Source of the DNA: Spirochaetota bacterium
GTDB taxonomy: Bacteria; Spirochaetota; UBA12135; COTS27
Direction: 5' to 3'
Length of the DNA: 64,000 nt
Assembly: GCA_965249715.1 (NCBI GenBank)
Contig: CBDFMP010000037.1
Coordinates: 711 to 64,710 of the forward strand
Shown here: positions 1 through 57,126 of the stretch, in pieces
Numbering within the stretch: position 1 is the stretch's first letter
How the letters are laid out: every line of letters starts with the position of its first letter
Position numbers and translations under genes: made by a program
Notes under the pieces: model-generated
The model's database searches: none
The model's input: the letters and a program-made list of their open reading frames with translations, nothing else
What the model was told of the DNA's origin: nothing

Positions 1-182
1 GCTTGCAAGCTGAGGCGATGACGGCAATGGCTGCCCGTGAGCAATTGGAGCAAGCTGCTGCCGTATTGCGGGCAGCGTTAAACAGTGGCAATGGAGCTGG
101 AGCGGCGAATGATGCGCCTGAGGCGATAACAATGCCTGTACGCCGCTTTATGGTGGAAACTGCACTTCTGCACGTACAATAA
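1..182 (+). CDS. C-terminal end (~59 codons) of an unidentified protein; the gene continues beyond the left edge
   Basis: Frame is open from the window edge to TAA at 180-182 (...AAREQLEQAAAVLRAALNSG...VETALLHVQ*). No motif recognised. Confidence 0.3.
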   Translation, partial: LQAEAMTAMAAREQLEQAAAVLRAALNSGNGAGAANDAPEAITMPVRRFMVETALLHVQ

Positions 183-237
183 CAAAATGTGGATGCCTGC
201 AATAACCATAAAACTTGTGGGGATTGTGGGATGATGC

Positions 238-1083
238 ATGGCTATGGGTTATAAGGCGATTGAGGCGGTTGGATTTTTTATGTTGAGAGCAATTTTTATT
301 AGTCTGCGGCTGAGCTTGTTGGCTGTGTTTGTAATGAGTTTAAGTGGATGTCCCACTAAGGCTGTTATTGCAGAAGCAGGGGATGCGTTGATTGTGTTCA
401 TTACGCAGGAGCCGCTGCTTGATAAAACACTCAATAGCTATGGGCATAGCGAGTACCCGGCAACACGATTTTTTGTGGACGCTTACTTGGGCGCATTGCG
501 TGAGCAATTGGCTGCTGCAAGTGCTGAAACTGGCTTAGCGTTAACGGGTATTTCACTGCCACAGCTTACAGCTGTTCAAAATGTCTGGGAAACAACCGTA
601 CTGCCTCAGTTTGCAGCAGACAGTACCCGCAGTCGCGCGGCTGCCAAGCGCCTGGCAGAAAGTCATAAGGGCAACTATTGGCAATATTGGCCGCAGGCGG
701 GGCTCACGCTTACAGGCATACCAGCAATACAACGGCCTGCTGTAATACAGGCGCTGCATGCGGCATTGGCAGAAAAATTTCAATATTTCATCGCGCTTGA
801 ACTCCGTTATTCATTGGTGGAACAGCGTATTCATAACCGTATAATCATTTATGATGCAGGTGGTGCGGTACTGGCAGCCACGCGCATTAAGGTTGTTGCG
901 AATACCATTATACGTGACAGTGCCTCACCTTATTTGTTAAGCGAGCCTTACCTGGCCATGCAGCCTGCAGCAGGCACACTTTTTACGGAATTGCAACTGG
1001 TGGCTAAGGAATTGGGGAAACAGGCAGCCGCGCAGCTGGTTCTCAAGTTGACTGGAAAAAAACGCGGGCAGACTTCTTCTTAG
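238..1083 (+). CDS. hypothetical exported lipoprotein
   Basis: 281-aa ORF. N-terminal hydrophobic stretch ends in a lipobox-like LSG|C (LLAVFVMSLSGC). The ATG at 280 is a more likely start. No family recognised. Confidence 0.5.
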   Translation: MAMGYKAIEAVGFFMLRAIFISLRLSLLAVFVMSLSGCPTKAVIAEAGDALIVFITQEPLLDKTLNSYGHSEYPATRFFVDAYLGALREQLAAASAETGLALTGISLPQLTAVQNVWETTVLPQFAADSTRSRAAAKRLAESHKGNYWQYWPQAGLTLTGIPAIQRPAVIQALHAALAEKFQYFIALELRYSLVEQRIHNRIIIYDAGGAVLAATRIKVVANTIIRDSASPYLLSEPYLAMQPAAGTLFTELQLVAKELGKQAAAQLVLKLTGKKRGQTSS

Positions 1084-3485
1084 CTTTAGGACTTAGTGGC
1101 GATATTTTTGAGCGCGGCGTTTTAACATGCTGCGTACTAATTTATCAATGCGATCGTTCCACGGATTGGCGCCGTGGTTGCCTGATACTATTGCGTCAAT
1201 GCAGTTTGGCTTTCCATGTTCCCAGTGCTTGCAGGACGGCATGAAGTTCTGCTGCCACATTGGCGGCAGCGTTAGCGGGAAGAAAGCCTAACTCTTCGCC
1301 GATGAGTATTTTATCATCTTGCAATAAAAGCCAACCCCAACCCAACTCATCCCAGTCCTTAATTTTTGAACCGTCTGTATAAATGCTCCAGCGATGCGTA
1401 ACATCCAGCTTGAGCGGTTGCGGCAAGCTTAGCTTTAGGACTTAGTGGCGATATTTTTGAGCGCGGCGTTTTAACATGCTGCGAACTAATTTATCAATGC
1501 GATCATTCCACGGATTGGCACCGTGTGCGTTGACCTTACTGAATTGTAACTTGCTTTTAAACGGCGCCATGGTTGCCTGATACTGTTGCGTCAATGCAGT
1601 TTGGCTTTCCATATGTTTCCAGTGCTTGCAGGATGGCGTGAAGTTCTGCTGCCACATTGGCGGCAGCGTTAGCGGGAAGAAAGCCTAACTCTTCGCCGAT
1701 GAGTATTTTATCATCTTGCAATAAAAGCCAACCCCAACCCAACTCATCCCAGTCCTTAATTTTTGAACCGTCTGTATAAATGCTCCAGCGATGCGTAACA
1801 TCCAGCTTGAGCGGTTGCGGCAAGCTTAGCTTTAGGACTTAGTGGCGATATTTTTGAGCGCGGCGTTTTAACATGCTGCGTACTAATTTATCAATGCGAT
1901 CGTTCCACGGATTGGCGCCGTGTGCATTGACCTTACTGAATTGTAACTTGCTTTTAAACGGCGCCATGGTTGCCTGATACTGTTGCGTCAATGCAGTTTG
2001 GCTTTCCATGTTCCCAGTGCTTGCAGGACGGCGTGAAGTTCTGCTGCCACATTGGCGGCAGCGTTAGCGGGAAGAAAGCCTAACTCTTCGCCGATGAGTA
2101 TTTTATCATCTTGCAATAAAAGCCAACCCCAACCCAACTCATCCCAGTCCTTAATTTTTGAACCGTCTGTATAAATGCTCCAGCGATGCGTAACATCCAG
2201 CTTGAGCGGTTGCGGCAAGCTTAGCTTTAGGACTTAGTGGCGATATTTTTGAGCGCGGCGTTTTAACATGCTGCGAACTAATTTATCAATGCGATCGTTC
2301 CACGGATTGGCGCCGTGGTTGCCTGATACTATTGCGTCAATGCAGTTTGGCTTTCCATGTTCCCAGTGCTTGCAGGTAAAAGCGGGAGTTAATGGCTTGC
2401 AGGACGGTGAAGTTCTGCTGCCACATTGGCGGCAGCGTTAGCGGGAAGAAAGCCTAACTCTTCGCCGATGAGTATTTTATCATCTTGCAATAAAAGCCAA
2501 CCCCAACCCAACTCATCCCAGTCCTTAATTTTTGAACCGTCTGTATAAATGCTCCAGCGATGCGTAACATCCAGCTTGAGCGGTTGCGGCAAGCTTAGCT
2601 TTAGGACTTAGTGGCGATATTTTTGAGCGCGGCGTTTTAACATGCTGCGTACTAATTTATCAATGCGATCGTTAATATTTTTGAGCGCCGTTTGATACAT
2701 GCTGCGAACAATTATCAATGCGCTCGTTCCACGGATTGGCGCCATTGTGCGTTTGACCTTACTGAATTGCAATAAACTTGCTTTTACCGTCTGTATAAAT
2801 GCTCCAGCGATGCGTAACATCCAGCTTGAGCGGTTGCGGCAAGCTTAGTTTTAGGACTTAGTGGTGCGCGGCGTTTTAACATGCGAACTAATTTATCAAT
2901 GCGATCGTTCCACGGATTGACGCCGTGGTTGCCTGATACTATTTTTGGCTTTCCATGTTGAGGATGGCGTGAAGTTCTGCTGCCACATTGGCTGGCAGCG
3001 TTAGCGGGAAGAAAGCCTAACTCTTGCCCATGACTATTTTATCATCTTGCAATAAAAGCCAACCCCAACCCAACTCATCCCAGTCCTTAATTTGAGCGTC
3101 TGGCGTCCAGCGATGCGTAACATCCAGCTTGAGCGGTTGCGGCAAGCTTAGTTTTAGGACTTAGTGGCGATATTTTTGAGCGCGTATGCTGCTACTAATT
3201 TATCAATGCGATCGTTCCACGGATTGGCGCCGTGGTTGCCTGATACTATTGCGTCAATGCAGTTTGGCTTTCCATGTTCCCAGTGCTTGCAGGACGGTGT
3301 GAAGTTCTGCTGCCACATTGGCGGCAGCGTTAGCGGGAAGAAAGCCTAACTCTTCGCCGATGAGTATTTTATCATCTTGCAATAAAAGCCAACCCCAACC
3401 CAACTCATCCCAGTCCTTAATTTTTAAACCGTCTGTATAAATGCTCCAGCGATGCGTAACATCCAGCTTGAGCGGTTGCGGCAAG
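1079..3485 (-). repeat. head-to-tail array of seven truncated copies of the RNase H catalytic-domain segment of the adjacent gene
   Basis: Units start at 1079, 1428, 1825, 2220, 2594, 2844 and 3147 (349, 397, 395, 374, 250, 303, 339 bp). Every junction reads cggcaag|cttagc. Each unit holds the 3' flank, stop codon and RNase H-domain codons of the intact gene (parental unit 3486-3971, 486 bp). Each lacks a 90-bp in-frame segment and 1 nt of a T-run. Confidence 0.9.
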
Positions 3486-3499
3486 CTTAGCTTTAGGAC

Positions 3500-4252
3500 T
3501 TAGTGGCGATATTTTTGAGCGCGGCGTTTTAACATGCTGCGAACTAATTTATCAATGCGATCGTTCCACGGATTGGCGCCATGTGCGTTGACCTTACTGA
3601 ATTGCAACTTGCTTTTAAAGGGCGCCATGGTTGCCTGGTACTGTTGTGTCAATGCAGTTTTGGCTTTCCATGTTCCCAGTGCCCAATGTTCTATGCCCAG
3701 ATAATCGTAATGAATGGTGAGCCTGGAAGTAGCATTCTTTGCTTGTAAAGCGGGAGTTAATGTTTTCAATGCTTGCAGGACGGCATGAAGTTCTGCTGCC
3801 ACATTGGCGGCAGCGTTAGCGGGAAGAAAGCCTAACTCTTCGCCGATGAGTATTTTATCATCTTGCAATAAAAGCCAACCCCAGCCCAATTCATCCCAGT
3901 CCTTAATTTTTGAACCGTCTGTATAAATGCTCCAGCGATGCGTAACATCCAGCTTGAGCGGTTGCGGCAAGGGTTGCCGCTGGTGCGGTGTTGTGTAAGC
4001 ACTTTGTCCCACTGGGAGGTCTGTTGTACGGGTCAGGTTGGCTAAGTATGTTTCTGCTTCTGCACGTGTCTTAAGTTTTTTATAACGTGCATCGGTAACA
4101 CCGTGTACCAGTGCGCGGCAAGCTTCCCAGCTGCGCACCAGTTGTTGATGCCCCTGCCGCGGCAAGTAAATGGCATACCAACTTGCTGCAGCCTTTTTTT
4201 TAGAGCTGGCTGCCGCTGCAGAGTTATTGGGAAAGAGTGTTTGCGCAGGCAT
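3500..4252 (-). CDS. ribonuclease H family protein with N-terminal RNase H1/viroplasmin-type hybrid-binding domain
   Basis: 250-aa ORF. The N-terminus (WYAIYLPRQGHQQLVRSWEACRALVHGVTDARYKKLKTRAEAETYL) resembles the RNase H1 N-terminal (Cauli_VI-like) domain. The C-terminal half has RNase H-fold landmarks (IYTDGS, AAELHAV, IHYDYLGIEHWALGTWKAK, NDRIDKL). Confidence 0.75.
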   Translation of the reverse strand: MPAQTLFPNNSAAAASSKKKAAASWYAIYLPRQGHQQLVRSWEACRALVHGVTDARYKKLKTRAEAETYLANLTRTTDLPVGQSAYTTPHQRQPLPQPLKLDVTHRWSIYTDGSKIKDWDELGWGWLLLQDDKILIGEELGFLPANAAANVAAELHAVLQALKTLTPALQAKNATSRLTIHYDYLGIEHWALGTWKAKTALTQQYQATMAPFKSKLQFSKVNAHGANPWNDRIDKLVRSMLKRRAQKYRH

Positions 4253-4300
4253 TGCAGTGTTGCCTTAGGATAGCAGACGCGCTAATGGAAACTAGCGGCA

Positions 4301-7588: not shown

Positions 7589-10500
7589 TTAAAAAGTTTT
7601 GTGGTGTACTGAGTTGCCGATACTGTATTCACGTTTGAAGAGACGATAAATGAATTTCATGAAACGATCAATAAGCAGATAAAACGCAGGCAATAAAATA
7701 AGCAGCAGCAATGTACTGATCATCAATCCCCACATGAGCGCAATGGCCATCGGTGCAAGAAAAGGTTCTTCACCCAGCAGCCCATAAGCCAATGGCGCGA
7801 TACCAACAACTGTAGTGATCGACGTCATCAGAATAGGACGTATGCGCGATTTGGCACCTGTTACGACGGCATCAAAAACATTCAACTTTTTTTCACGTTG
7901 TAAGCGATTGATCTTATCCACCATGACAAGCGAATCGTTGACAATAATTCCCATGAGCGCGACACCGCCTAAAAACGGCATAAGACCGATGGGCGTTCCC
8001 GTAATAAAGAGACCAATGACAATGCCCACAAAACCAAGCGGAATAATGGACATGACAATGAGCGGCTGCACGTAACTTTTAAAAATGACGGTCAGGACAA
8101 AATAAATGCCGAAGATGGCAAGCAGCAGTGCCCTAATGGTGCCGATGATAAGCTCTTGTTGTTCTTCTTGCTCGCCTTTAAGCTCGAAGTCAACAGCTGG
8201 ATGAGCAGCTTGCCATAGTGGAATTTGCTCTTTTATTTGTGCAACAAGGGCAGTTGCGCTGTTTTGGCGATCGTTTTGATCTTTGAGCAATGCCGAAACA
8301 GAAATGTAAAGTTTGCCGTCTTCTTTGATAAGGCGTCCACTGTTGGTGGTATAATCCAGTTTAGCAATGCTTTCCAAAGGAATCATGAAGCCGCGTTGGT
8401 TGGGGATGGGGGTATTGTTAATGTCATTCAGTGTTTTGGTTTCATTGGTAATGTACTTGACAATGAGTTCGACTTCGTCGTCATTGGTGCTGAACGATGA
8501 GAGCGATGTAATACTCAGCGACGATTCATTTGCAAAAGCATTGCTCACCGCGGTTGCAATGTCGCGAAGATTCACGTTCACAATGGATGCGAGTGTTTCA
8601 TCGGGAAGCACAGAGATCCCCTGTTTGCCGTCTTTATAACCGGTGGAGACCGATGCTGTATTGGGCAGTTTTGTGATAAAAACATTGACCTCTTTTGCGG
8701 CAGCAAGGATCGTTGAAATATTTTTACCGGTCACGTAAACGTCAATGGGTTTACCTGCAGGGGGGCCGCCTTTAAGGGGTTTGACGCTATAGCTAACCAT
8801 ACCGGGGGTAGCTTTAATGCTGTCTTCAATGAGTGCTGTGAGCTCATCATCGCTTTCGTCGCGACTGGTATCAAGAAAAACACGAATATAACCAAGGTAG
8901 CTCTGAAAGTCAGGTACGTTATCAAAAGTACTATCCTGTCCAACAGTAGAAACTATATCCACAACATAGTCCCCTGTGTTGGCAGCAATACTGGCTTCCG
9001 CCTTGTCTAAAACTTTTGCCGTTGCTGCTAAGTTATTATAAGTAGGCGTTTCTATGTCCACTATGATGCTTTCTGCTTCACCGGGAAAGAAGACAAAGGG
9101 CACTTGCGAGCCTAAACCAAACGCCAATCCAAAATAGTGTGCCGAGGAAAGAGGGTCGTGGTAAGGATAGGTTTGCGCAACCACTTCATCAGCACTTTTT
9201 TCATAAGCATTGCTGACGACACGGAACCAACGGCGTTGGTCGCGTGGTGATTTTTTTGGTTTGTTTTAGACGTGGAAGCGGTTGTTACAGCCGAGCTGTC
9301 AGCTGTTATTGCCAGCTCGTCATCAGCTTGCGGCAATGGAGCAGCATTGTCGCGTAGGTGAGCCAGATGCCCAGGCAAAACAAAAACACATTCCACCAAT
9401 GAGCAAAGCAAGGTGATGATCACAATTTTCGGGATAATGCCAAGCACATCGCCGAAGATGCCGGGGAGGGTGGCTAAGGGGAGGAAGGCTAAGGTGGTGG
9501 TCGCAATAATGGCAATGACAGGTATTAACATTTCCTGCGTCCCTTCAAGCGCCGCTTGCCGAAAGGGCATGCCGCGTTCTACGCGTGTGTAAATGCTCTC
9601 AGCAATGATAATGGCATCGTCGACAATCATGCCCACCACAATGATCAGACCAAACATGGTCATCAGGTTCAGTGTGAGCCCTATGGCATAAGCAATGATA
9701 ATAGCCAGACAGAACGAAAAGGGGATGCCAAGCATTGTCCACAAGGTCACACGCAGGTTGAAAAAAACAATCATGCACAAAAACACAAGGAGCAGACCAA
9801 CAGTTGCATTGGTTGAAAGAACGCTCAAGCGGCGTTCTACATAAAATGCCAGATCATCCACTGTGGCAGTACGCCCGCCCGCGGGCAGGTAGCCTTTGGC
9901 TTCATATTCTGCTAACAGTGTTTTGACGCCCTTTGAGACCTTGATGGTATCGCCATTGGGTGTTTTAAAAACATTGAGCCAAATGCCCTGATTGCCGCCT
10001 GAACGCAAGAACGTTGTCAGTTCTTCATGTGCCCAGCGCACATTGGCAAGATCTTTGAGCAGGACACGAAATCCTTTGTCATTGACGCGAATGATGGTGT
10101 TTTCAATTTCCGCTAACGATGAATATTCCTTACTGGTTTTAATAAAAAACTCTTTATTTTTGACAGTGATCTTACCTGCGGGTACATTAATATTGCGGGC
10201 ATTCAGCGCGGCAATGATCGTATTCAGTTCCGTGTCATAAGCTTGTAATTTTTCAGGGATGACATCGACCCATATTTCCAGCTTAGGATAGTTGTGCAGC
10301 GTCACTTTCCCCACACCGGGGACGCTTTTGACATCTTCTTTGAAACGCCTGGTGATACGTTTGAGCTCCTCAGTATCAATATTGCCAAGAAACCCGACGC
10401 GTAGGTTGGGATTGACTGTTGAAAAAGCTAACTCGCGAATAATTGGATCCGAGACACCATCAGGAAAACTTAGTTTATCAACTGCGCTTTCTAGCTCATC

Positions 10501-10815
10501 CATGATCTCACTATTGGCGCGGCCGATAGCATTGTCAATTTCAAAACTGATAACGGCACGCCCCTCACTGGAAAAAGAGGTGATCTTATTGGCACCCTCA
10601 ACAGTCTCAATTTCGTCCTCAATTTTTTTAGTAACAAGTGCTTCCACATCATCTGCTGATGCACCTCTGTAGGCTACAGAGATGGTGATAATGTCAAAGC
10701 CGATATTCGGAAACCCTTCTTTGCGTCCCTGAATAAAGGTCAGCGTACCAATGGTAATGACAAGGATAACGACAAGATTGACAGCTTTATATTGATTGAT
10801 GAAGAATTGAATCAT
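7589..10815 (-). pseudogene. second RND efflux permease, split into two overlapping ORFs (9112-10815 N-half, 7589-9184 C-half) by one frame change
   Basis: The two ORFs together are collinear with the 1067-aa paralog. The frame switch must lie in the ~9,110-9,200 overlap. This could be a true frameshift or a sequence error. Confidence 0.7.
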
Positions 10816-10898
10816 AATGAAATCCTTGGAAATTTTTTAAGAAGCCCCGCTCATGAAAATTTCAGCTGTGGTGGCTGCTTGGAAGGTCGCTTAAAATA

Positions 10899-12491: not shown

Positions 12492-12822
12492 TATTTTTAG
12501 TGGATATAAAAAAGCTTAATGATTATTTAGAATGGAGTGGGGGGATGTTTGGGCATTCCACTTTGCCCATAATCTTTACTAACCTTTTACATCAGTAGAG
12601 TCAAGAATTTTCCCCAATTATAAGGGTTAATGATGATCGTTTTAATGCTGCAAAAAAAAGCAACTGGAGTCAGCTTATTATAAAAATTATGACTCTTAAT
12701 GTTAAAATTGATAGTGGAAAATGTTAAGTGCCAATTTTGCTTGTTAAGCAGCAAATGCTGTTGTGGTCTTAATGGTGGTAACGAACATTTAGTTGTTAAT
12801 TATAATATATTGTTAGTTATAA

Positions 12823-13617: not shown

Positions 13618-13686
13618 GCAATGCTGTAATGTTGGCTTGCTGAGCTGAAATTCTTGCTGTAAGTGTATTAGGCAAGCGGATTTAGC

Positions 13687-14294: not shown

Positions 14295-14302
14295 ACGCTT
14301 GT

Positions 14303-34391: not shown

Positions 34392-37169
34392 CTACTTTTC
34401 AAGGAGAATGGAACCGGTGACCTCAGACTCTAAGACCATTTCGTTATTTTCTAGATCAAAGGAAACTTGGTCAGAGATAAACTCATCGCCAGTATTAAGG
34501 TCACGAATTTGCGGTGATCCTAACAGGGTGATGGTTTTGGTATCCGGTTTGTAAATGCCCAAGGTTGAGAATGCTTCATTGGTGCCGTTGTTGACATGGA
34601 CATTGCCTTTGGCGTACATAATGTTTTCGTTGTCGAACTTTTCCATGACCTCGGCTTTGACCTTGGTTAGATTAGTTTCCTGTTTCCAAGTAAAAATGGG
34701 CGAGCCGGTGATAATGGTATAAGCGTCAGCTAAGCGGTGTTCCAGTACGTCACCAATGATCTCAGTGTGGTCGCGTAGATCAATGACTTTCACGTTTTCT
34801 TTACAATGAAAAGTTTCATTATCCGGGATGTTAAAATTATAACGTCCGTGGACACATGACAATTTACTGGTAAGTGTACCGCTGTGGGTGAATTCTTCCA
34901 TCCGTACATTACTTTCAAAGAAGCTTTGTGAAAGTTTATTTTCTAGAATCATGGTTTTGGAACGTATATGGCGAATAACGTCTGTCGTGGTGATCTCCAG
35001 CCGCGGCTTGTCTTTGAGGATGGAACGGTCGTTTGCAAAGTCGTGCAGGACGTACTGACTGAAGCTTTTGAGGTTGTCGCGCGGCATGGTAATGACGACA
35101 TTTGTATAACATTCAAAACGCGAGCTGTTGCCGCTTGCAGTTTGTTTTGTAAAATAGTAGGTGCCTTCTTCGCAGGTCAAGTAGTTGTAATCTTGACGCT
35201 TAAAGCTTTGCAAATTAAAAATTTCATTTTCTGGTTCACCGTAAGCCACTTCAATGATACGCACATCTTTATGCAGCTTGGTATGGGATTGACTGAGCAG
35301 TACTTCCATTTCCTGGGCGTAGGCAAGCATTTTGGTGTGACGTTCGGTAATATTCACAAAAAGCGGCTGCTTATACACGATGGAACGCTCTTCTGCTATG
35401 TAATAGAGGACGTGGTTGCCTTTGAGGATAGAGTTCCTAAATGGCTTTTTAATGCGTGTGTGTTTAAATCCTTCAAAATAGCGCTCATTGCTGTAATGGT
35501 AAATAAATTGTTCACCCGTTAAAATGGAAACAGCTTGCTCATTGGTATTGAATTCTTTAACAATCACGTTGTCTTGAAAAAAAAGTTGACGGTTGTGATT
35601 GTCGCGTGTGATCTGCTTGGCGGTGCCGCGTATTATTTTGGTTGGCGCGTTTTTTTCGCTGATAAAATTGACATTGCCGCTGATAACGCTTTGACCATTA
35701 TCAAAACGATGGACTAATCTATCAGAGAAAAGTTGTGCTTGCTCTAGGACATCGTTTAGGATAACGTCGCCTCTGCATTCAAAGATGTGATGAGCTGGGC
35801 GGCTATAGTTGTACATGGCATTTTTGCAACTGATCCATTCGGGAATGTCAGTAGCGTCTTCGGCGCTGCGCGGCCCCGGGGGCCGTTCGCCGCTTAGCAA
35901 TTGCATTGCCGCATCAGCTTCCAATTCATAAACAAAAATATCTTTTTTAAAATAAATCACGCGCTCTTTTTGGGCAATTTCCATGCGCAGCGAGCTGATG
36001 CGCGAATAATTGCTGTTGGTACCGCTCTTCACCAACATGACAGGTGTTCGTTCTGCATAGCCCGTCTCCTCAGTGAAGTCGTAGTGAATAAAATCTGCTG
36101 TGATGGTCGAATCTTCTATGAAGTTGCTGAGGATAGCATTTTCATAACAATTTAAGTAACTGGGATCCCCGTAATAATTGGTTGCATGGTCGCAGGCAAG
36201 TGAGGTCAGCGTTTCACCAGCTGCATTAGTCTCAAAGATCATCACATCGTCATGCAGTGTCGTGCGTTCTTCATCCTTATAAAGGACCATTTCATCGGCA
36301 AGCGTCACCAATGTTTTTTTATCGCTGGCCTGTTCAAAACGCGCATGTCCCTTTGCTGTGCCTTTATTGAGAAGTTTCTCCAGAAAGAGATAATCGCTAA
36401 TGAGGATAGATTCGCTTTCTATATTCTCTGCTTTAACGTTTTCAAAACATTCCATGTTGTTATTACTGATGACGTAATAACTGCGATTGCAGGTGATGAC
36501 GTAATTATCTTCTATCGGTTTATCATCCTGCCCCAGCTCGTTAATTTCCACATTCGTTTCCACTTCCAGTGTTTGTGCACCGGTGTTGTAGATGGACGTC
36601 TCACCGGTGATGCGTGTTAAACCGTCACTTTTATGGGTGATGGTGATGCGTGTATTGCCACTGGTGGTGATGAGATTGCGCTGCATATAGCCAATGAACG
36701 TATCCGCTTCTATGTACACTTGTTCTATTTGATTGTCAATAGCGGGATTGCCCTCTGCGTAGATAATTTCTTTTGCCATATCATAGCGCAGGCGGTCACC
36801 TTTGTAAAAAATGCCCTGAGCTTTATTGAGGAAAGTGACATTGCCATAAGCTTCAGCCAACTGCGTCCTATTATTCATAATAATTTTATCTGCTTTGAGC
36901 CCCTGTTGTTTTTTACGAATGAAGGCACGCCCTGTGAGAATAGCTTGATCCAGCTTCGGCTTGAGCACAATATTATCAGCTTGATAATGAATATTTTGTC
37001 CCCATAACACGGCTGCCTGAAAACTGAGGCTGAAGACAACCCCCAACAGGCTGCTGAGTTTGAGCGCACGTTTAGTATTGTGAACGAAACTGCCGCTTAA
37101 CCCCACGCTGGTGACCGCCAATAGGACGTTGGCACGCGTACGCACGTACGGCGATAGCTTGGTGAACAT
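34392..37169 (-). CDS. giant LptA/OstA-like periplasmic protein (926 aa from ATG 37169)
   Basis: Sits between lptC and lptB. The ATG lies 1 nt after the lptC stop. LptA-like segments occur near the N-terminus (IHYQADNIVLKPKLDQAILTGRAFIRKKQQGLKADKIIMN..AEAYGNVTF) and at the C-terminus (MYAKGNVHVNNGTNEAFSTLGIYKPDTKTITLLGSP). The interior was not verified. Confidence 0.6.
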   Translation of the reverse strand: MFTKLSPYVRTRANVLLAVTSVGLSGSFVHNTKRALKLSSLLGVVFSLSFQAAVLWGQNIHYQADNIVLKPKLDQAILTGRAFIRKKQQGLKADKIIMNNRTQLAEAYGNVTFLNKAQGIFYKGDRLRYDMAKEIIYAEGNPAIDNQIEQVYIEADTFIGYMQRNLITTSGNTRITITHKSDGLTRITGETSIYNTGAQTLEVETNVEINELGQDDKPIEDNYVITCNRSYYVISNNNMECFENVKAENIESESILISDYLFLEKLLNKGTAKGHARFEQASDKKTLVTLADEMVLYKDEERTTLHDDVMIFETNAAGETLTSLACDHATNYYGDPSYLNCYENAILSNFIEDSTITADFIHYDFTEETGYAERTPVMLVKSGTNSNYSRISSLRMEIAQKERVIYFKKDIFVYELEADAAMQLLSGERPPGPRSAEDATDIPEWISCKNAMYNYSRPAHHIFECRGDVILNDVLEQAQLFSDRLVHRFDNGQSVISGNVNFISEKNAPTKIIRGTAKQITRDNHNRQLFFQDNVIVKEFNTNEQAVSILTGEQFIYHYSNERYFEGFKHTRIKKPFRNSILKGNHVLYYIAEERSIVYKQPLFVNITERHTKMLAYAQEMEVLLSQSHTKLHKDVRIIEVAYGEPENEIFNLQSFKRQDYNYLTCEEGTYYFTKQTASGNSSRFECYTNVVITMPRDNLKSFSQYVLHDFANDRSILKDKPRLEITTTDVIRHIRSKTMILENKLSQSFFESNVRMEEFTHSGTLTSKLSCVHGRYNFNIPDNETFHCKENVKVIDLRDHTEIIGDVLEHRLADAYTIITGSPIFTWKQETNLTKVKAEVMEKFDNENIMYAKGNVHVNNGTNEAFSTLGIYKPDTKTITLLGSPQIRDLNTGDEFISDQVSFDLENNEMVLESEVTGSILLEK

Positions 37170-37170
37170 T

Positions 37171-37794
37171 TTAAAATTCAATATCAAAAAAATCCTTTTC
37201 AGTCGCACCTTGTTCTTGCACATTGCCAGAAACGGTTGAAGTGAAGACTACGGCGTTAAGCTCTTTATCGGCACTGAACCCGCTGCCGCTAATGGTGAAC
37301 CCGTTTGGCTTACGCAGGTTCACCAGCTTAGGCGACGTTAATTTCTCAGTGCTGTTGTTCCAATAAAAATATGGCCCTGAGACCGCTGTGCCTTTAACAT
37401 TGCGGATGGATACATTACCGCTTAGGGCAATGTTTTGTGTATCGCTTTCCAATACAGCTTGCTCCGCCACCACATACGAGGTTGGTTGACGAGTTGGGTC
37501 ATAAAACGTTAAATGCACTGTTTTTAAATATGTACGCTCTTTTTTTTTAAAGACGGCGGCGGTTTTGGATGTAAGTGTCCATTTGAGCTCGTTGGCATTG
37601 AAAGAGACGGTTTTAAAACTACTAATGCTGGCATCGCTGACTTCTTCTTTTGCGATGTCTGTTTCTGCAGCGGTGGGATTAAGGCGCGGATCAAATTGAC
37701 CACACCCAAGCGTACTGAAAAGTACTGCCATGGTGATAATTCCCACACCAATGACTGTAAACCGCACCCAGATGCGGAAATGTTTTACGGTCAC
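37171..37794 (-). CDS. lptC: LPS export system protein LptC
   Basis: 207 aa. Single N-terminal membrane anchor (FTVIGVGIITMAVLF) followed by a beta-rich domain. Lies immediately upstream of the lptA-like gene and lptB. Confidence 0.65.
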   Translation of the reverse strand: MTVKHFRIWVRFTVIGVGIITMAVLFSTLGCGQFDPRLNPTAAETDIAKEEVSDASISSFKTVSFNANELKWTLTSKTAAVFKKKERTYLKTVHLTFYDPTRQPTSYVVAEQAVLESDTQNIALSGNVSIRNVKGTAVSGPYFYWNNSTEKLTSPKLVNLRKPNGFTISGSGFSADKELNAVVFTSTVSGNVQEQGATEKDFFDIEF

Positions 37795-44382: not shown

Positions 44383-45099
44383 TTAACTGTTGGACATGTT
44401 TTGTTCAATTTCAGTAAACTGCTTGACTGTAGTTTTTCTAATTTCATCTGAATGTTCAATGATACTTTTATGAGCTTTATAATTTTTTTCAGGGTTGGAA
44501 GTATTGTCATATACTGGAATGATAACTTGCACTCCATTTCTTCTAGCCTCTTTTATTGCAGGTATAAGGTCTGTATCATTAGTGATTAAAATTATTTTAT
44601 CAACTAGCTTGTTTAAAGAATAATGTGCAATATCAAGTCCTATTTTTATATCAACGCCTTTTTGAACAAAATCTTCGTAGAAGATTTTATCACTTAATGT
44701 TAATGTTATTTGCGGTTGATGGGACTGGCTTTTTATTTGCTCAATTATCTTCTTTTTTAAATTAAGACCTCTGAAAGCTAGTCGCCCCATGCGGAGTGCG
44801 ACCCCAGGCTGTTCTCCCAGATATCTGAATAACATGGAGAATTTTTCAGATTTTTTACTAGCAATTTTGTCTTTGGAAATAGGTTCGTTTGGTGGAGCTT
44901 CCCAGCGGTGTGGGTAACAGTCATAATAAAGAATACGAAATAGTTCCTCATGTTTAGCTTCATCAATTGTTGATTTAATATTTTCAATAAGAAACTTACT
45001 GTATTGTTCGGGAGATATGTATTGATTTTTTTGTTCCTTTATTTTAGGGAGTATCATCCTTAAGAAGCCCCCATCCACCATTACAACAACTTTTTTCAT
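44383..45099 (-). CDS. NYN-domain (LabA-like, PIN-related) protein
   Basis: MKKVVVMVDGGFL at the N-terminus and KIILITNDTDLIPAIKEARRNGVQVII later. The ORF track extends to 45144, but that ATG lies inside a palindrome, so I prefer ATG 45099. Confidence 0.65.
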   Translation of the reverse strand: MKKVVVMVDGGFLRMILPKIKEQKNQYISPEQYSKFLIENIKSTIDEAKHEELFRILYYDCYPHRWEAPPNEPISKDKIASKKSEKFSMLFRYLGEQPGVALRMGRLAFRGLNLKKKIIEQIKSQSHQPQITLTLSDKIFYEDFVQKGVDIKIGLDIAHYSLNKLVDKIILITNDTDLIPAIKEARRNGVQVIIPVYDNTSNPEKNYKAHKSIIEHSDEIRKTTVKQFTEIEQNMSNS

Positions 45100-45117
45100 T
45101 TGGATATGGAAATAAGA

Positions 45118-45144
45118 ATGGTCCAACCTCAAAGGTTGGACCAT
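45118..45144 (-). promoter_or_regulatory. perfect 11-bp-arm palindrome in the NYN leader (copy 1)
   Basis: atggtccaacc-tcaaa-ggttggaccat, ~20 nt upstream of ATG 45099. On the coding strand it is followed by ttcttatttcc. Confidence 0.6.
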
Positions 45145-51233: not shown

Positions 51234-53820
51234 TCAGTAAGTACAGCCTATGGTAGTACTTCGGATGGTATTGATAGCTTCGCACTGCTCAGCTGCTGTG
51301 ACCGGCAGACCCTTCAGCACAGGATATTGTGATGTTGTGCCGAAATTCCAATCGTCAGTACTCCAGCCAGCAAATATGCCGGGGTCGGTGCGGAGCGCCT
51401 TTAGCTCAGTGGTGGTTTTCCCTACACCCTCACCATCGGTGGTGCTGTTGAGGGTGCTGTCCCAGTAGCTGTTAGTGACATCTGCACCGTCGGGGGCTAA
51501 ACCGGTAAAGCTAGCGGTATTTGCTGCGGTTACTGTTGCCGCTACGTACACATTGCTCAGTGTTACTGGATTGAGACTCACACCGCCGCTTGTATAACCA
51601 GTAGCAGTACCAGTGGTTTCAACGCTTCCAACAAAGTAGCTGTTATGAATGGTACCAATAGAAGAACCTACCAGTCCGCTGCCGAATTCACCTGCAGATA
51701 TGCTAGCCGTAGCAAAACTATTATTGATAGTGCTGCCACTAGCTGCATTCCCCACTAGTGCACCTACTCTGCTGCCGCCATGATGAACAGTAAGATTGAT
51801 AACTGCACTATGACCGATGTTGCCGCCGCCGGCCATAGATCCCACGAGTCCGCCTACATAAACACCTCCAGTTATATTGGCATTTACCAATGTGCAGTTG
51901 GTGATGAGCAGCGTTCCCATCAAGGTGAAAGCAAAGAGTCCGATTGTAATATCCGTCATTATTCGGACTGCCGTTATTAGTATTGCTGATGGTGAGGTTG
52001 GAAATGGTGTTTGAGGCGCAGTCCAGTGTTCCCGTGAAGCTTCTACCTTTTTGATAAGTACTGTCGCTACTGGTTGAATTCGTTCTTTTGCCGATAGGCA
52101 CAAAGCCGTTACCTGTGGTGATATTCGTCCAAGGTGCGTCAGTAAGCCCGAGGTCAATGTCAGCGGTGAGTGTGTAATGTTTATCCCTGTAAGTGGTGCC
52201 GTCAGAAGTGTCGTCGCCATTTACCAGCCGGCTCATGAGGTCTAAACGCAGGTCATTATCAATGAGGTAGGGGTTGTCAGCATCCGCGCCAGTGCCGCCA
52301 GCGAATGAGTCGCACTCTTGCACGGTGATAGTGGCACTGCTGTAGTTAATTAGCGAACCATTTTCGGGAGTGGCAGAGGATGCGGTCAAGCTGCGATCAT
52401 TAATATTCGCTGTACCGCTGTTGTCAAAGTAGGGGGAGTGGCTGCCGGGAGTAGTGCCGAACGTGGCACTCACTGTGGTTTTATCACCAGCTTCATCAAT
52501 GGTGAACAGCGAGTAAGTGAATATTTCGCAGGGGTCAAGGTTTTTGCTGATGCTGCTTTCTCCCTCAGCAATGGTGGTGGTGCTGGCGTCACCGCCAATT
52601 CTAACATTATAAGAGGGTGCAAGTACTAAGCTGACGGTGTAGTCTGCTGTAATGCCACTATTTGTAACGGTGAACGTTCCCAGGCTGAGCGTTTGGGTTT
52701 GAGTGCCAGCTTGGTCGGTGAATGTCAGTGTTGTTTCGTCCATTGTTATGGTGGATCCGCTGGTTGCTGCTGCGATGGTGACAGAACCAGTATCAGTATC
52801 GGTTAAGCCAAGATTGGTGCTGTCAAGGTTGCGGACATGCCGGCGGCGGCTGTCGATGGTAACGATAGTTCCCGAAATATCGATGTCGCTGATACTGGAG
52901 ACGATGTCAGAGTTAAGGGTATTGGTAACGGAGATGTTAATGTCGCTGGCACTGATGCTAACATCGGGAAGTTCAGACAGCACCACGACTAAATCATAAG
53001 AAGCTTGATTGGTAGTGTCGTCTTCAGTGATGCTGAAGTTACTGCTGATGGTTTCTTCAGCAGTGCCATCGGAGTCAGTGAATGAAACGGGGCTGGGACT
53101 GAGGGTGTAACCTGCTGGAAGACTGATACCACTGGCAAGATTAAGGGTGACAGAGCCTTCTGTACCACTGCCAGTGGGATTGAAAAGCCCGGTGATGGTA
53201 AGGGTAGGGGTATTGCCAGTGGTATCCCAGCTGACGTTGGCACTTTGACTATCAAAAGTAACGGTTGCATCGGTAGCAGGGATGAGCGCGTCAATGCCGC
53301 CGGCAGCGGCGACAATATTACTAACAGGCTGTCCGCTGTACTCTACGATGATGTCAATAGGAATAATGCTATCATCCGCAAGGCTGGTGATGGTGAGGGC
53401 GTTGGGGTTGGTGTCGGTGGTGGTTTTGGCGCCGTCAGACATCGACGGTGATATTGAAAGTGAAAGGTGAAGCAGCAAAAGTGAAAGCAGTAGCATCTTC
53501 AGTAATGGTGAGGGTGGCTAAGGTGCCAGTGGTAGTCAGTACATTATCGCAGGGTCAGACCGGGGCAGGCATTGGTGAGCAGCTTGCCAGTAATGGTGAT
53601 GGTGCCTGTGGCGGGGTCGGTGGTGCTGTCGATGGAAACGGTAGTCGCGAGCTCTAGGTTGCTGGACGTTATTGGACAGATCAATGGTAACGGCGTCAGT
53701 GAGCGCCTGTTCCAATGGGCTGAGACGCGTAGAGTCTTCCGTAGCGGCGCAGCTGGAAAGGATGAGTGTGAATGCGCTAACACTAAGTATGAGCGCAAAA
53801 AGCTTATAGGATGATTTCAT
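51234..53820 (-). pseudogene. large GLUG-motif surface lipoprotein/adhesin-like gene broken into at least 4 frames
   Basis: Signal plus lipobox (FTLILSS|CAA) at 53820. Thr/Ser-rich beta-type repeats. The C-terminal part carries GLUG-like repeats (YVGGLVGSMAGG, SRVGALVGNA, GSGLVGSS) and SYWD...TELKAL...FAGW...WNFG..QYPVLKGL. Frame changes near 53,660, 53,545-53,445 and 51,960. Confidence 0.65.
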
Positions 53821-53833
53821 GATAAATTCCTTG

Positions 53834-54152: not shown

Positions 54153-55430
54153 TTAAAATTGTTCAGCTTCAGTGGAACCTGCAAGAGCTTGTGTTGAGGA
54201 AGTACCGCCAGTAATGGCCGTATTCACAGCATCGAAATAACTTGCGCCCACCTCACGTTGATGTTTGGTGGCAGTGTAGCCGTGTGCCTCATCGGCAAAC
54301 TCGCGTTCTTGCAATGTAACATATGCTTGCATACCCATTGTTTTGTAACGCCGCGCCAGATCAAACATACCGTGATTAAGGGCATGAAATCCCGCTAAGG
54401 TGATGAATTGAAACTTATAACCCATCGCGCCCAGCTCACGCTGAAATTTAGCAATGGTGGCATTGTCTAAGTGCCGCTTCCAGTTAAACGATGGCGAACA
54501 GTTATAAGCCAACATTTTATCGGGGAATTGTTTATGCACAGCTTCAGCAAACTGTTTGGCTGTGTCCAGGTTAGGCGTATTGGTTTCCACCCATAAAAGA
54601 TCGGAAACCGGGGCGTAGGCAAGCGCGCGCGCGATGCCTTGCTGGATGCCCGGACGGAGACGATAAAAGCCCTCAGCTGTGCGAGCACCCTTTTCAATAA
54701 AAGCATGGTCGCGTTCGTCAATGTCACTAGTGATAAGCGCAGCCGATTGGGCATCTGTACGCGCAATAATGAGCGTTGGTACATCCATGGTGTCGCTCGC
54801 AAGGCGCACAGCCATTAGCTTTTGAATCGCTTCCTGTGTGGGAACAAGTACTTTGCCGCCCATATGACCGCATTTTTTAGCGGAGGAGAGCTGATCTTCA
54901 AAATGTACCGCACTGGCACCCGCTACAATAAGCGCCTTGGTGAGTTCAAACGCGTTGAGATTGCCGCCAAAACCTGATTCAGCATCGGCAACAATAGGAA
55001 CGAACCAGTCAGTGTCATGATTGCCTTCTGCGGAGGTAATTTCATCAGCACGTTTAAACGCGTTGTTAATTTTTCGCACAACAGCAGGCACACTGTCGAC
55101 GGGATAAAGACTTTGATCGGGGTACATGGTCTCGGCGGTATTGGCATCGGCTGCCACCTGCCATCCGCTGAGATAAATGGCTTTCAACCCCACACGCGCC
55201 ATTTGCATGGCTTGATTGCCGCTGAGTGCACCCAATGCATTAATGTAGGCATTGTCCTGCAATGCCCGCCATAATTTTTGCGCACCCTGCTCCGCTAAGG
55301 TATGAGCAATGGGAAGTGTGCCACGCAGCTTCACCACCTTGGCGGCGGTGTAGTGACGCGTGACACCTTGCCAACGCGGGTTATTCTTCCATTCCTGGAT
55401 AAGTGTTTCACTGGACTTAAATGTTTTCAT
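54153..55430 (-). CDS. aceA: isocitrate lyase
   Basis: 425 aa. Signature KKCGHMGGK. Adjacent to malate synthase. Confidence 0.9.
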
Positions 55431-55524
55431 GGAATTGTATTTGGATATCCTCCATAAAATTGAATTGTTGGGTTAAGTTTTATGATTGATCATAAACCGT
55501 TAATAAACACGTTAACCATTCAGG

Positions 55525-57126
55525 TTAATGATGGTTAAGCTCAGCATAAGCTGCCAATGTCAGAAAGTCCGCAAAAGTTGGTTGCGTGACAATCTTACGC
55601 AGAATAACAAAGGCACGCGTGTAATAAGTGCCAGCTGCCACAAGCGCTGCCTTAGCAGCTTGTGTTTCGCTTTCAATGTTTTTAAAACAGCTTTCGATGA
55701 ACGTTGCATCTACCAGTGCATGGGTATCGGCAGTGGTTTTGTTGGGGATGCCGTAATGGGACCATTGCCAGAGCTGGGCACGCGCAATTTCAGCAGTTGC
55801 CATGTCTTCCATCAGGTGATTAATAGGCACACAGCCCGTACCGCTAAGCCATGCCGCCAAATAATGCACGGCAGCACGAATATTGTTCTCGATGCCCGCT
55901 TGGGTGACCGTGCCCTTCGGGACAGCCAGGAGATCTTGTGCGGTGATGGTGACATCGCTGAGGAGTTTTGATTTTTGATTGGCCTGCGGCATCACCTGCT
56001 TAAAAATGTCCATGGCTATCGGAACAAGCCCCGGGTGCGCTACCCAAGTGCCGTCGTGACCATTTTTAGCTTCACGTTCTTTATCGGCACGTACCTTGGC
56101 GATAGCTTCATCATTGGCGGCGGTGTCGGTTTTAATGGGGATTTGTGCAGCCATCCCGCCCATGGCGTGTGCGCCGCGCAAGTGACATGTTTGGATCAGC
56201 AGCTTGGAATAACTGCTGAGGAAATGTGTACTCATGCCCACCTGTTCACGATTCGGTAAAACAAAACTCTTATGGTTGGCAAACTTCTTAATGAATGAAA
56301 AAATATAATCCCAACGCCCACAATTCAGCCCCACACAATAATCGCGCAATTCGTGGAGAATTTCGTGCATTTCAAAAACAGCGGTGATGGTCTCAATGAG
56401 TACTGTTACACGAATGCTGCTGGCAGGAAGCTGCAATTGCGTTTCTGCTTGTTTGATGAGTTTCGCCCAAAGGCGCGCCTCTTCATGACTTTCCAACTTG
56501 GGAAGATAAAGGTAGGGGCCGCTCCCGTGCTCAAGTGCGGCTTTGGCATTGTGAAAGATGTGTAAGGCAAAATCAACAAAAGCACCGGGGACGGCTTTAC
56601 CGTTAAGTGTGATATTGGTTTCAGGCAAATGCAGTCCGCGCGGACGGACAATAAGAATAGCCAGCTCCGCCGGCGCTTTCAAGCGATATTCCTTGCCTGC
56701 AGGATTTGTAAAGGTGATGGACTGACGCACGGCATCGTAAATATTCTGCTGCCCTGCCATGAGGCCATCCCAGGTAGGACTTTGCGAGTCCTCAAAATCT
56801 GCCATATAAACCTTTGCGCCAGAATTGAGACCATTGATGATCATTTTTCTGTCAACGGGACCGGTGATCTCTACACGTCTGTCCTCCAAGTGCGCAGGGG
56901 GTGGTTTTACGCGCCAACTTTTATCCTCGCGGATGGCGTGCGTGGCAGGTAGAAAATCAGGGAAGACACCAGCATCAAACTGCGCCTGACGCGCCTTGCG
57001 TTTATGCAAAAGCTCCTCTACTGTCTGAGCATGTTTGTTGACCAATGTTTCCAAAAAGCTAAGCGCTTCTTGACTAAGGATTTTTGCATATTTCTGCTGC
57101 TGAACGGGGTTAATGCTTAAAGTCAT
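55525..57126 (-). CDS. aceB: malate synthase A
   Basis: 533 aa. GPYLYLPKLESHEEARLW, GLNCGRWDYIFS, HDGTWVAHPGLV. Confidence 0.9.
   Translation of the reverse strand: MTLSINPVQQQKYAKILSQEALSFLETLVNKHAQTVEELLHKRKARQAQFDAGVFPDFLPATHAIREDKSWRVKPPPAHLEDRRVEITGPVDRKMIINGLNSGAKVYMADFEDSQSPTWDGLMAGQQNIYDAVRQSITFTNPAGKEYRLKAPAELAILIVRPRGLHLPETNITLNGKAVPGAFVDFALHIFHNAKAALEHGSGPYLYLPKLESHEEARLWAKLIKQAETQLQLPASSIRVTVLIETITAVFEMHEILHELRDYCVGLNCGRWDYIFSFIKKFANHKSFVLPNREQVGMSTHFLSSYSKLLIQTCHLRGAHAMGGMAAQIPIKTDTAANDEAIAKVRADKEREAKNGHDGTWVAHPGLVPIAMDIFKQVMPQANQKSKLLSDVTITAQDLLAVPKGTVTQAGIENNIRAAVHYLAAWLSGTGCVPINHLMEDMATAEIARAQLWQWSHYGIPNKTTADTHALVDATFIESCFKNIESETQAAKAALVAAGTYYTRAFVILRKIVTQPTFADFLTLAAYAELNHH

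What the first reader, a model, noticed from the sequence alone, without database searches (positions are those of the whole stretch)
1079..4252. Intact HBD-RNase H gene followed by seven head-to-tail, internally deleted copies of its own catalytic domain
Seen in the sequence:
- The parental unit is 3486-3971 (486 bp): 3' flank, stop codon, and codons back to the inter-domain linker LPQPL.
- It is repeated 7 times downstream of the gene, always through the same junction cggcaag|cttagc.
- All copies lack the same 90-bp in-frame block (3683-3772, encoding KTLTPALQAKNATSRLTIHYDYLGIEHWAL). All except the degenerate unit 5, which lacks this segment entirely, carry the same 1-nt T-run contraction that shifts the frame.
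- Three copies also lack a 46-bp block bounded by ggcgcc(a/g)tgg direct repeats.
- The arithmetic fits: 486-90-1=395 and 395-46=349.
- Units 5 and 6 are riddled with extra small deletions.

Inference:
- A single already-inactivated unit was amplified, since the shared derived changes argue against random noise.
- The layout superficially recalls an expression locus plus silent cassettes.
- The deleted block includes the HYDY region, where this family is expected to carry a catalytic Asp.
- Mis-assembly of a smaller repeat remains possible.
Basis: partly seen in the sequence, partly recalled or inferred. Interest (0 to 1): 0.65.

Follow-up and report, generated by a model that had tools for sequence, protein, structure and literature searches.

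The report
Dead RNase H fragment tandem array
An intact RNase H gene in an uncultured marine spirochaete-like bacterium is followed by a head-to-tail run of broken copies of its own 3' half. This is an ordinary by-product of duplication and unequal recombination, and the copy number and two "decayed" copies could not be confirmed in the reads.

Summary
The repeat is in the sequence as described. An intact 250-aa HBD + RNase H gene (3500..4252, minus strand) is followed by seven head-to-tail copies of its last 486 bp (1079-3485). All are joined through the same novel junction GGCAAG|CTTAGC.

- **Shared changes:** five copies carry the identical 90-bp deletion junction. The deletion removes the conserved YDY motif holding the probable third catalytic Asp (D183). 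Six of the seven also carry the 1-nt run contraction.
- **Read support:** short-read contigs from four public runs contain the junction, the deletion, the contraction and both the +46 and -46 bp subtypes. Depth is 3.3-4.8 times single copy, so at least about four extra copies are real.
- **Not supported:** none of the private features of units A-D appears in those contigs, including the two "degenerate" units. These anomalies form one contiguous, indel-dominated patch (2674-3193). Unit composition in the reads also differs from the assembly. Seven units and the decayed copies are therefore unverified.
- **Comparison:** the nearest relative, starfish symbiont COTS27, has the same gene order with 12 nt between the convergent genes and no array.

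Best reading: a lineage-specific, non-functional tandem amplification of a gene fragment. The silent-cassette idea is not supported. Interest is low.

The parts
3500..4252 (-). Intact RNase H1-type gene (250 aa): one N-terminal hybrid-binding domain, a linker, then the RNase H domain. Putative DEDD residues are D112, E154, D183, D234.
   Evidence: ORF list. Pfam PF01693 and PF00075 both above cut-off. PDB 2kq2 at 1e-18. 42% identical syntenic orthologue in COTS27. Alignment.
4046..4180 (-). Hybrid-binding domain (Cauli_VI), residues 25-69. It lies outside the repeated unit.
   Evidence: Pfam.
3486..3971 (-). First ('parental') unit, 486 bp: linker codons LPQPL to the stop codon plus 14 nt of 3' flank. 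It is the only unit with both the 90-bp and 46-bp blocks, and it carries 7 private substitutions.
   Evidence: A parent-specific 265-nt short-read contig (3551-3815) sits at single-copy depth 3.7.
3683..3772 (-). 90-bp in-frame block present only in the first unit. It encodes ALKTLTPALQAKNATSRLTIHYDYLGIEHW, including D183. The boundary is ambiguous by the 3-nt microhomology GCA.
3584..3629 (-). 46-bp block bounded by GGCGCC(A/G)TG direct repeats. Present in the parent, E and F (partly in C); absent from G, D, B and A.
   Evidence: Both forms are seen in short-read contigs.
3964..3980 (.). Perfect 7-bp hairpin GCGGCAA-GGG-TTGCCGC. The upstream end of the duplicated unit (3971|3972) falls in its loop.
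   Evidence: Sequence and fold. Its role in the first duplication is inferred.
3147..3485 (-). Unit A (339 bp), -46 type. 3194-3485 is clean; 3152-3193 carries 3 deletions (10 nt) and belongs to the anomalous patch.
   Evidence: Its private segments are not seen in reads.
2844..3146 (-). Unit B (303 bp), -46 type. It has 12 indel events and 8 substitutions relative to G and is unverified. Its underlying type (-46 with caggaTggcGtg) is present in the reads at about 2.2x.
2594..2843 (-). Unit C (250 bp), a composite. It consists of a clean unit end (2594-2673), a noisy parent-like partial restart (2674-2786) and a clean 58-nt unit start (2787-2843). Unverified.
2220..2593 (-). Unit D (374 bp), -46 type. 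It is identical to G apart from one substitution (2276, the A/T site in ctgcgAact that also varies among the other units) and a 25-nt insertion at about 2378-2406 that holds about 17 nt of the 90-bp block.
   Evidence: The short-read contig lacks the 25 nt.
1825..2219 (-). Unit E (395 bp), +46 type.
   Evidence: An E-private contig (1893-1956) has depth 3.0 in X1.
1428..1824 (-). Unit F (397 bp), +46 type with a 2-nt AT insertion at 1611-1612.
   Evidence: The X4 151-nt contig matches 1472-1622 exactly. X1 has the same unit type without the AT.
1079..1427 (-). Unit G (349 bp), -46 type and the last unit. Its final 5 nt (CTTAG) overlap the stop codon of the convergent gene.
   Evidence: The X1 4.2-kb contig runs from the flank 30 nt into it.
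2674..3193 (.). Contiguous anomalous patch: indel-dominated and not bounded by unit ends. None of its private 31-mers was found in the four runs.
238..1083 (+). Convergent neighbour: 281-aa protein of unknown function with a hydrophobic N-terminus. It is the orthologue of the gene that lies 12 nt from the RNase H gene in COTS27.

Best explanation
This is a lineage-specific, non-functional tandem amplification of a gene fragment.

**Proposed history (inferred)**
1. A 486-bp segment was duplicated in tandem. It covered the RNase H catalytic domain, the stop codon and 14 nt of 3' flank. The join was illegitimate, with no microhomology, and one end lies in the loop of a 7-bp hairpin.
2. The first unit stays fused to the promoter, start codon and hybrid-binding domain, so the gene remains intact and under selection. 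Downstream units have no start signals and are free to decay.
3. One downstream unit lost 90 bp through a 3-nt microhomology, which removed the probable catalytic Asp183. It also lost 1 nt in an A/T run, which shifted the frame.
4. That dead unit was then multiplied or homogenised by unequal homologous recombination between sister chromosomes.
5. Slippage between GGCGCC(A/G)TG direct repeats produced the -46 bp subtype.

**Status of each part**
- Shown: the array exists in the organism with at least about 4 extra copies.
- Not shown: the exact number of 7, and the private features of units A-D, including the two 'decayed' units. These are most likely assembly noise or a minor or variant allele of an unstable array.
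- Inferred: the order of events and the lack of function.
For: - **Same origin:** the identical novel junction occurs 7 times with 0 expected. The identical 90-bp deletion junction is in 5 units. The shared 1-nt contraction is seen.
- **Young array:** the clean units differ from each other by 1-6 substitutions (F vs E: 6 substitutions, 1 indel). The first unit has 7 private substitutions.
- **Read depth:** the X1 single-copy flank depth is 3.3-3.7. Against this, the unit-start 56-mer is at 16.3, the 186-mer at 15.1, the junction 60-mer at 11.1, the -46 105-mer at 7.55, E- and F-private contigs at 2.1-3.6, and the parent-private 265-mer at 3.7.
- **Graph behaviour:** flanking contigs stop 30 nt inside the array on both sides, as expected at a repeat.
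- **Ancestral state:** the syntenic COTS27 locus has RND-RND-RNase H and a convergent gene 12 nt away, with no tandem repeat.
- **No expression signals:** no promoter-like site was found on the array's coding strand. The copies' only ORFs are 67-88-aa TTG-start fragments. That these lack a Shine-Dalgarno sequence is my own reading of the sequence.
- **Unverified units:** runs hold only 17-26% of B+C words, equal to the 25.8% shared with other units, although X1 holds 99% of flank words. B shows 12 indel events against 8 substitutions, and the anomalies form one contiguous patch at 2674-3193.
Against: - The public runs are available only as contigs, which drop rare variants. Absence of the A-D private features is therefore suggestive, not proof.
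- Depth is low (about 3.4x), so copy number is known only to about +/-1.
- One apparent assembly oddity, the AT at 1611, turned out to be present in a read-length contig of run X4. The assembly is therefore not simply noisy there.
- C's noisy segment carries parent-like states at two diagnostic sites. An old, genuine copy would show the same.
- No transcription data exist, so lack of function is inferred, not shown.
Confidence: 0.75

Rival explanations
1. The array is exactly as assembled. It has seven units, of which B, C and parts of A and D are genuinely older, decaying copies that escaped homogenisation.
For: - B's substitution divergence (8 in about 300 nt) is of the same order as the parent-copy divergence (7 in 395).
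- C's noisy part is parent-like at two diagnostic sites.
- F's odd AT insertion is confirmed by an X4 contig.
- Total k-mer mass over the region in X1 is compatible with either 4 clean units or 7 partly private ones.
Against: - None of 13 private segments of A-D is seen in X1 or X2 contigs, against 7-8 of 10 for P, E, F and G.
- Indel events outnumber substitutions (12:8 in B).
- In C's 55-nt local duplication, one copy is 100% clean and the other 86% identical.
- The anomalies are contiguous across unit boundaries.
- Elsewhere the assembly carries a 5-letter indel cluster that breaks an RND gene which is intact in the short-read contig.
Confidence: 0.25
2. The whole array is an assembly artefact. 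Only one or at most two units exist in the genome.
For: Tandem repeats are a classic place for assembler errors. Part of the array (2674-3193) is unsupported by reads.
Against: - Junction-spanning contigs sit at 3.3x single-copy depth in X1 and about 2.2x in X2.
- The unit body is at 4.4-4.8x.
- At least three distinct truncated unit types (E-like, F-like and -46) are present alongside the single-copy parent form.
Confidence: 0.05
3. The array is functional. It could be a reservoir of silent cassettes for gene conversion into the RNase H gene, a long structured 3' UTR or antisense source regulating the convergent genes, or a source of catalytically dead 76-aa RNase H fragments.
For: - The layout is gene plus promoterless partial copies.
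- Each clean unit has a TTG-start ORF of 76-88 aa that keeps D112 and E154.
- The array lies between two convergent genes.
Against: - The copies are near-identical and offer no diversity.
- The first unit shows no conversion tracts: it keeps 7 private substitutions and both blocks.
- There is no Shine-Dalgarno sequence before the TTG (my own reading of the sequence) and no excess of promoter- or terminator-like sites.
- The array is absent in the only syntenic relative.
- Unit composition differs between the reads and the assembly, as expected for an unstable neutral array.
Confidence: 0.04

Closest known systems
Bacterial tandem duplication-amplification arrays (join-point duplication followed by RecA-dependent unequal crossing-over, as described for Salmonella and E. 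coli gene amplification; from my own knowledge of Reams & Roth and Sandegren & Andersson)
   Same: The copies are head to tail and every one shares a single novel join point. Copy number is raised in read depth, unit composition varies between data sets, small slippage deletions occur between direct repeats, and the array is absent from the relative's syntenic site.
   Different: The unit is only 349-486 bp and is a promoterless fragment of a gene, not one or more whole selectable genes. The amplified form is already inactivated, so dosage selection is not an obvious driver.
Type 1 RNase H with N-terminal hybrid-binding domain (Pfam PF01693 + PF00075; closest solved relative 2kq2 'Ribonuclease H-related protein')
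   Same: The intact gene has both domains above Pfam cut-offs. The motifs YTDGS, AAEL, YDY and NDRID correspond to the DEDD positions.
   Different: It is only 42% identical to its nearest known relative, COTS27, which has two HBD copies. The position of E. coli His124 is Asn. Activity is untested.
Expression site plus silent cassette systems (Neisseria pilE/pilS, Borrelia vlsE/vls; from my own knowledge)
   Same: One intact expressed gene lies next to promoterless partial copies arranged head to tail.
   Different: Cassettes in those systems are diverse and are copied into a surface antigen gene. Here the copies are near-identical, all carry the same inactivating lesions, the product is a cytoplasmic nuclease, and the gene shows no conversion tracts.

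Membership tests
HBD-containing type 1 RNase H | RNase_H (PF00075) domain above the curated cut-off | tested here: met
   39.2 bits against a cut-off of 25.8, residues 108-239. PDB 2kq2 at 1.1e-18.
HBD-containing type 1 RNase H | N-terminal hybrid-binding domain (Cauli_VI, PF01693) | tested here: met
   32.5 bits against a cut-off of 21, residues 25-69.
HBD-containing type 1 RNase H | Four carboxylate active-site residues (E. coli D10, E48, D70, D134) | tested here: inconclusive
   D112, E154 and D234 align with D10, E48 and D134. D183 in the conserved (I/L)xYDY strand end lies 2 columns from D70 in the MAFFT alignment, but it is invariant in the three closest relatives.
HBD-containing type 1 RNase H | Cleavage of RNA in RNA:DNA hybrids | not testable with these tools
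   Needs an enzyme assay.
Tandem duplication-amplification array | Head-to-tail copies that all share one novel join point | tested here: met
   7 identical junction 21-mers, 0 expected. Junction-spanning short-read contigs are present.
Tandem duplication-amplification array | Read depth of the unit is a multiple of the flanks | tested here: met
   15.1-16.3 against 3.3-3.7 in X1, and about 7 against 3.2 in X2.
Tandem duplication-amplification array | Derived state: absent at the orthologous site of relatives | tested here: met
   At the COTS27 syntenic locus the convergent genes are 12 nt apart and there is no repeat. Only one relative is available.
Tandem duplication-amplification array | Copy-number or composition instability within the population | tested here: inconclusive
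   Unit types in the reads differ from the assembly: -46 units carry gaTggcG, there is an E/F hybrid, and F occurs with and without AT. Contigs cannot separate polymorphism from assembly path error.
Expression site + silent cassettes | Cassettes differ from each other and from the expressed copy in variable segments | tested here: not met
   Clean units differ at 1-6 positions and all carry the same lesions.
Expression site + silent cassettes | Segmental conversion from the cassettes into the expressed gene | tested here: not met
   The first unit keeps 7 private substitutions and both blocks. The parent-specific contig is at single-copy depth.

The most novel reading that the evidence does not exclude
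The array is a stably maintained, expressed element. It could be a long 3' extension of the RNase H mRNA, or a set of translated, catalytically dead RNase H fragments that bind hybrids or titrate a partner. It could also serve as donor DNA that reversibly switches the RNase H gene off by recombination with the first unit, acting as a recombinational on/off switch for R-loop processing in a symbiont.
Probability: 0.04. Interest if true: 0.6.

Novelty: new member of a known kind. Interest (0 to 1): 0.18.

Why it matters
As biology it matters little. It is a clean textbook example of how a small tandem duplication with a blunt join point can expand into an array while the first, gene-fused unit stays intact. 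It also shows deletion and slippage acting on unselected DNA in a poorly known marine spirochaete-like lineage related to the starfish symbiont COTS27.

Practically, it flags that this contig has locally unreliable stretches: 2674-3193, and 9135-9264 where an RND efflux gene is split only in the assembly. Annotators should call units A-G pseudogene fragments, not genes. If the array proved to be expressed or to switch the gene off by recombination, it would be a new kind of control for RNase H. Nothing found here points that way.

Tried and rejected
1. **Closer relatives to date the array.** The word-index protein search gave only COTS27 at 42%. The genome-contig scan gave one Peptococcaceae hit at 34% and the metagenome-contig scan gave none. 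Exact-protein look-ups of three window proteins found nothing. COTS27 is therefore the only syntenic comparison.
2. **Long-read or RNA runs.** No Nanopore-labelled run could be listed. The RNA request returned only the same DNA-type runs. Spanning reads and transcription could not be tested.
3. **'The assembly is simply a noisy long-read consensus'.** I first took F's AT insertion as an error because X1 lacks it. An X4 contig contains it exactly, so that argument was dropped. The claim now rests on the RND indel cluster and on the pattern of the 2674-3193 patch.
4. **Copy number from total k-mer mass.** Four clean units and seven partly private units predict similar totals at 3.4x depth, so this does not discriminate between them.
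5. **Promoter and terminator scan of 1-4500.** Counts were at or below the shuffled expectation.
6. **Silent-cassette reading.** Rejected for lack of diversity and of conversion tracts.
7. **Diversity-generating retroelement reading.** Unit differences are not adenine-specific, and no reverse transcriptase was seen among the ORFs scanned.
Full report
**What is in the sequence**

The minus strand carries an intact 250-aa ORF at 3500..4252. It has a Cauli_VI hybrid-binding domain (residues 25-69, 32.5 bits) and an RNase_H domain (residues 108-239, 39.2 bits), both above Pfam cut-offs.

Its closest solved relative is the 'RNase H-related protein' 2kq2 (E = 1e-18). In alignments, YTD112GS, AAE154L and NDRID234 match E. 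coli D10, E48 and D134. The strand-end motif HYD183Y is invariant in the three closest relatives and lies within two alignment columns of D70.

Downstream of the gene (lower coordinates), the last 486 bp of the gene region (3486-3971) recur seven times head to tail, down to 1079. This unit runs from the linker codons LPQPL through the stop codon plus 14 nt. The units are:

| Unit | Coordinates | Length (bp) |
|---|---|---|
| A | 3147-3485 | 339 |
| B | 2844-3146 | 303 |
| C | 2594-2843 | 250 |
| D | 2220-2593 | 374 |
| E | 1825-2219 | 395 |
| F | 1428-1824 | 397 |
| G | 1079-1427 | 349 |

The 21-mer across the join, GAGCGGTTGCGGCAAG|CTTAG, occurs 7 times against 0 expected in shuffles.

Relative to the copies, the first unit alone has:
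- a 90-bp block (3683-3772, ALKTLTPALQAKNATSRLTIHYDYLGIEHW);
- one extra base in an A/T run (3661);
- 7 private substitutions.

The first unit shares a 46-bp block (3584-3629) with E and F only.

**Is it real or an assembly product?**

Four public runs of one sample hold this sequence, as assembled short-read contigs only. X1 holds 99% of the single-copy flank words at depth 3.3-3.7.

The flanking contigs stop 30 nt inside the array on each side (1108 and 3942). This is the expected behaviour of a de Bruijn graph at a repeat.

Depths inside the array in X1:

| Segment | Depth | Multiple of single copy |
|---|---|---|
| Unit-start 56-mer | 16.3 | 4.8x |
| 186-mer of the unit body | 15.1 | 4.4x |
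| Junction-spanning 60-mer | 11.1 | 3.3x |
| 105-mer spanning both the 46-bp and 90-bp deletion junctions | 7.55 | 2.2x |
| E-private and F-private contigs | 2.1-3.6 | about 1x |
| Parent-private 265-mer containing the 90-bp block | 3.7 | 1x |

X2 gives about 2.2x for junction and body contigs. The join point, the 90-bp deletion, the 1-nt contraction and both subtypes therefore exist in the organism. About four truncated copies sit beside one intact unit. The 'pure artefact' reading is rejected.

**What is not verified**

- Of the 31-mers in units B+C, 25.8% are shared with other units. The runs hold 17-26% of B+C words, which means essentially none of the private ones.
- Across X1 and X2, none of the 13 private segments of A, B, C and D is seen. 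By contrast, 7-8 of the 10 private segments of the parent, E, F and G are seen.
- The anomalies form one contiguous patch at 2674-3193, plus a 25-nt insertion in D near 2378-2406. They do not form two discrete old units.
- B differs from G by 12 indel events but only 8 substitutions, whereas F and E differ by 6 substitutions and 1 indel.
- C is a composite. It has a perfectly clean unit end, then a noisy parent-like partial restart, then a jump to a clean 58-nt unit start. Its internal 55-nt duplication has one perfect copy and one 86% copy.
- Elsewhere the assembly has five extra letters and four substitutions at 9135-9264 relative to the X2 contig. Removing them fuses two overlapping ORFs into one 1080-aa RND transporter. 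So locally unreliable stretches do occur. A 9.3-kb stretch at 34.5-43.8 kb, in contrast, has no indel difference from X1.

Against a simple 'noise' story:
- Contigs drop rare variants.
- F's odd AT insertion, absent from X1, is matched exactly by a 151-nt X4 contig.
- C's noisy part is parent-like at two diagnostic sites.

Unit composition in the reads also differs from the assembly:
- The -46 units at 2.2x carry caggaTggcGtg, a combination that only B has in the assembly.
- X2's E-like contig has an F-like right half.

I conclude that the array is real, and that it is either polymorphic or threaded arbitrarily by the assembler. Seven units, and the decayed units in particular, remain unproven.

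**Context and origin**

The window is ordinary chromosome. It carries RND efflux genes, an outer-membrane factor, sigma-54, IleRS, LptD-like, glyoxylate-shunt and other metabolic genes.

The nearest relative for both IleRS (62%) and the RNase H (42%) is the 'Spirochaetota bacterium' COTS27. [quoted passage not shown]

Its genome has the same gene order: RND, RND, RNase H (357 aa, two HBDs), then a convergent gene that is 31% identical to window ORF 238..1083. Only 12 nt lie between the convergent genes, and there is no tandem repeat.

In the window, the last unit ends inside the neighbour's stop codon (CTTAG, 1079-1083). Deleting the array would therefore restore the COTS27-like arrangement. 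The array is a derived, lineage-specific insertion produced by duplication in place.

**Mechanism (inferred)**

- The join GGCAAG|CTTAGC has no microhomology with either original flank. The upstream end of the unit lies in the loop of a perfect 7-bp hairpin, GCGGCAA-GGG-TTGCCGC, at 3964-3980. This suggests a stalled-fork or template-switch origin for the first duplication.
- In a tandem duplication, only the first unit remains fused to the promoter, start codon and HBD, so it stays under selection. Later units are unexpressed. No promoter-like sites exceed expectation, and by my own reading of the sequence there is no Shine-Dalgarno sequence before the TTG at the unit start.
- One later unit lost 90 bp between GCA microhomologies and 1 nt in a homopolymer. 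That dead unit was then multiplied or homogenised by unequal recombination. Slippage between GGCGCC(A/G)TG repeats made the -46 form.
- The first unit's 7 private substitutions (about 1.8%) show no recent exchange with the array. This fits selection against recombinants that would import the deletion.

**Comparison with known systems**

This works like the classical bacterial duplication-amplification arrays, and I file it there as a new, small, non-selected-looking example. The intact gene is a member of the HBD-type RNase H1 family.

The expression-site/silent-cassette analogy fails its defining tests. The cassettes are not diverse, there are no conversion tracts, and the product is not a surface antigen. 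A diversity-generating retroelement is also excluded, because unit differences are not adenine-specific and no reverse transcriptase was seen among the ORFs scanned.

**Verdict**

The 'dead unit amplified' interpretation is supported, and the cassette analogy is not. Interest is low (0.18). The residual novel possibility, an expressed or switch-like function, gets about 4%.

Noticed in passing
window 7589-10815 (indel cluster at 9135-9264; also 10833): An RND (AcrB-family) transporter is split into two overlapping ORFs (7589..9184 and 9112..10815). The X2 short-read contig lacks 5 letters (9135, 9148, 9196, 9250-9251) and differs at 4 bases (9258-9264). Removing the letters gives one 1080-aa ORF. 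This is either a local assembly error or a strain-specific pseudogene.
   Followed up: yes
window 8669-13000 and 13085-16146: Run X1 has no contigs over about 8.7-13 kb and only depth 2 up to about 16 kb, although it covers both sides at 3.3-4x. X2 covers this stretch at 3.2x. This suggests a strain-variable segment carrying the second RND pump and the outer-membrane factor.
   Followed up: no
window 44751-45299 and 45564-45627: The X2 contig (depth 7) skips 547 bp here, removing part of a NYN-domain ORF (44383..45144) and the start of the next ORF. It also shows about 17 clustered substitutions at 45564-45627. This looks like a second strain or allele in the same sample.
   Followed up: partly
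window 48248-50803: A pentapeptide-repeat protein region has a 15-nt period nested in 261-308-nt higher-order repeats. ORF 48248..49396 hits Pfam Pentapeptide at 1e-28. Short-read contigs show many indel differences and raised depth here.
   Followed up: partly
window 47561-47634 and 47802-47878: Two tRNA-Met (CAT) genes lie 170 nt apart. Contig depth is 80-110x here, presumably from cross-mapping of conserved tRNA sequence from other organisms in the sample.
   Followed up: no
window 53825-54021: A 94-bp intergenic unit is repeated 2.1 times at 98% identity, upstream of the isocitrate lyase / malate synthase pair (54153..57126).
   Followed up: no
L002 6001-7074 (COTS27, AP019861.1): The orthologous RNase H of COTS27 has two tandem hybrid-binding domains (357 aa), against one in the window protein. 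The RND-RND-RNase H-convergent gene order is conserved.
   Followed up: partly
window 51234-53496 and 34392-37794: There are two further pairs of overlapping long ORFs: 51234..52220 / 51808..53496, and 34392..37223 / 37171..37794. The second pair shows no indel difference from the X1 contig, so that overlap is not an assembly error. The first pair lies in a region with several 1-3-nt indel differences from the reads.
   Followed up: partly
window 814, 918, 1017: The X1 contig differs from the assembly by three substitutions within the last 270 bp of ORF 238..1083, next to the array (814 is also different in X3). The 4.3 kb on the other side of the array has only one difference, 7508 T>G, seen in both X1 and X2.
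   Followed up: no
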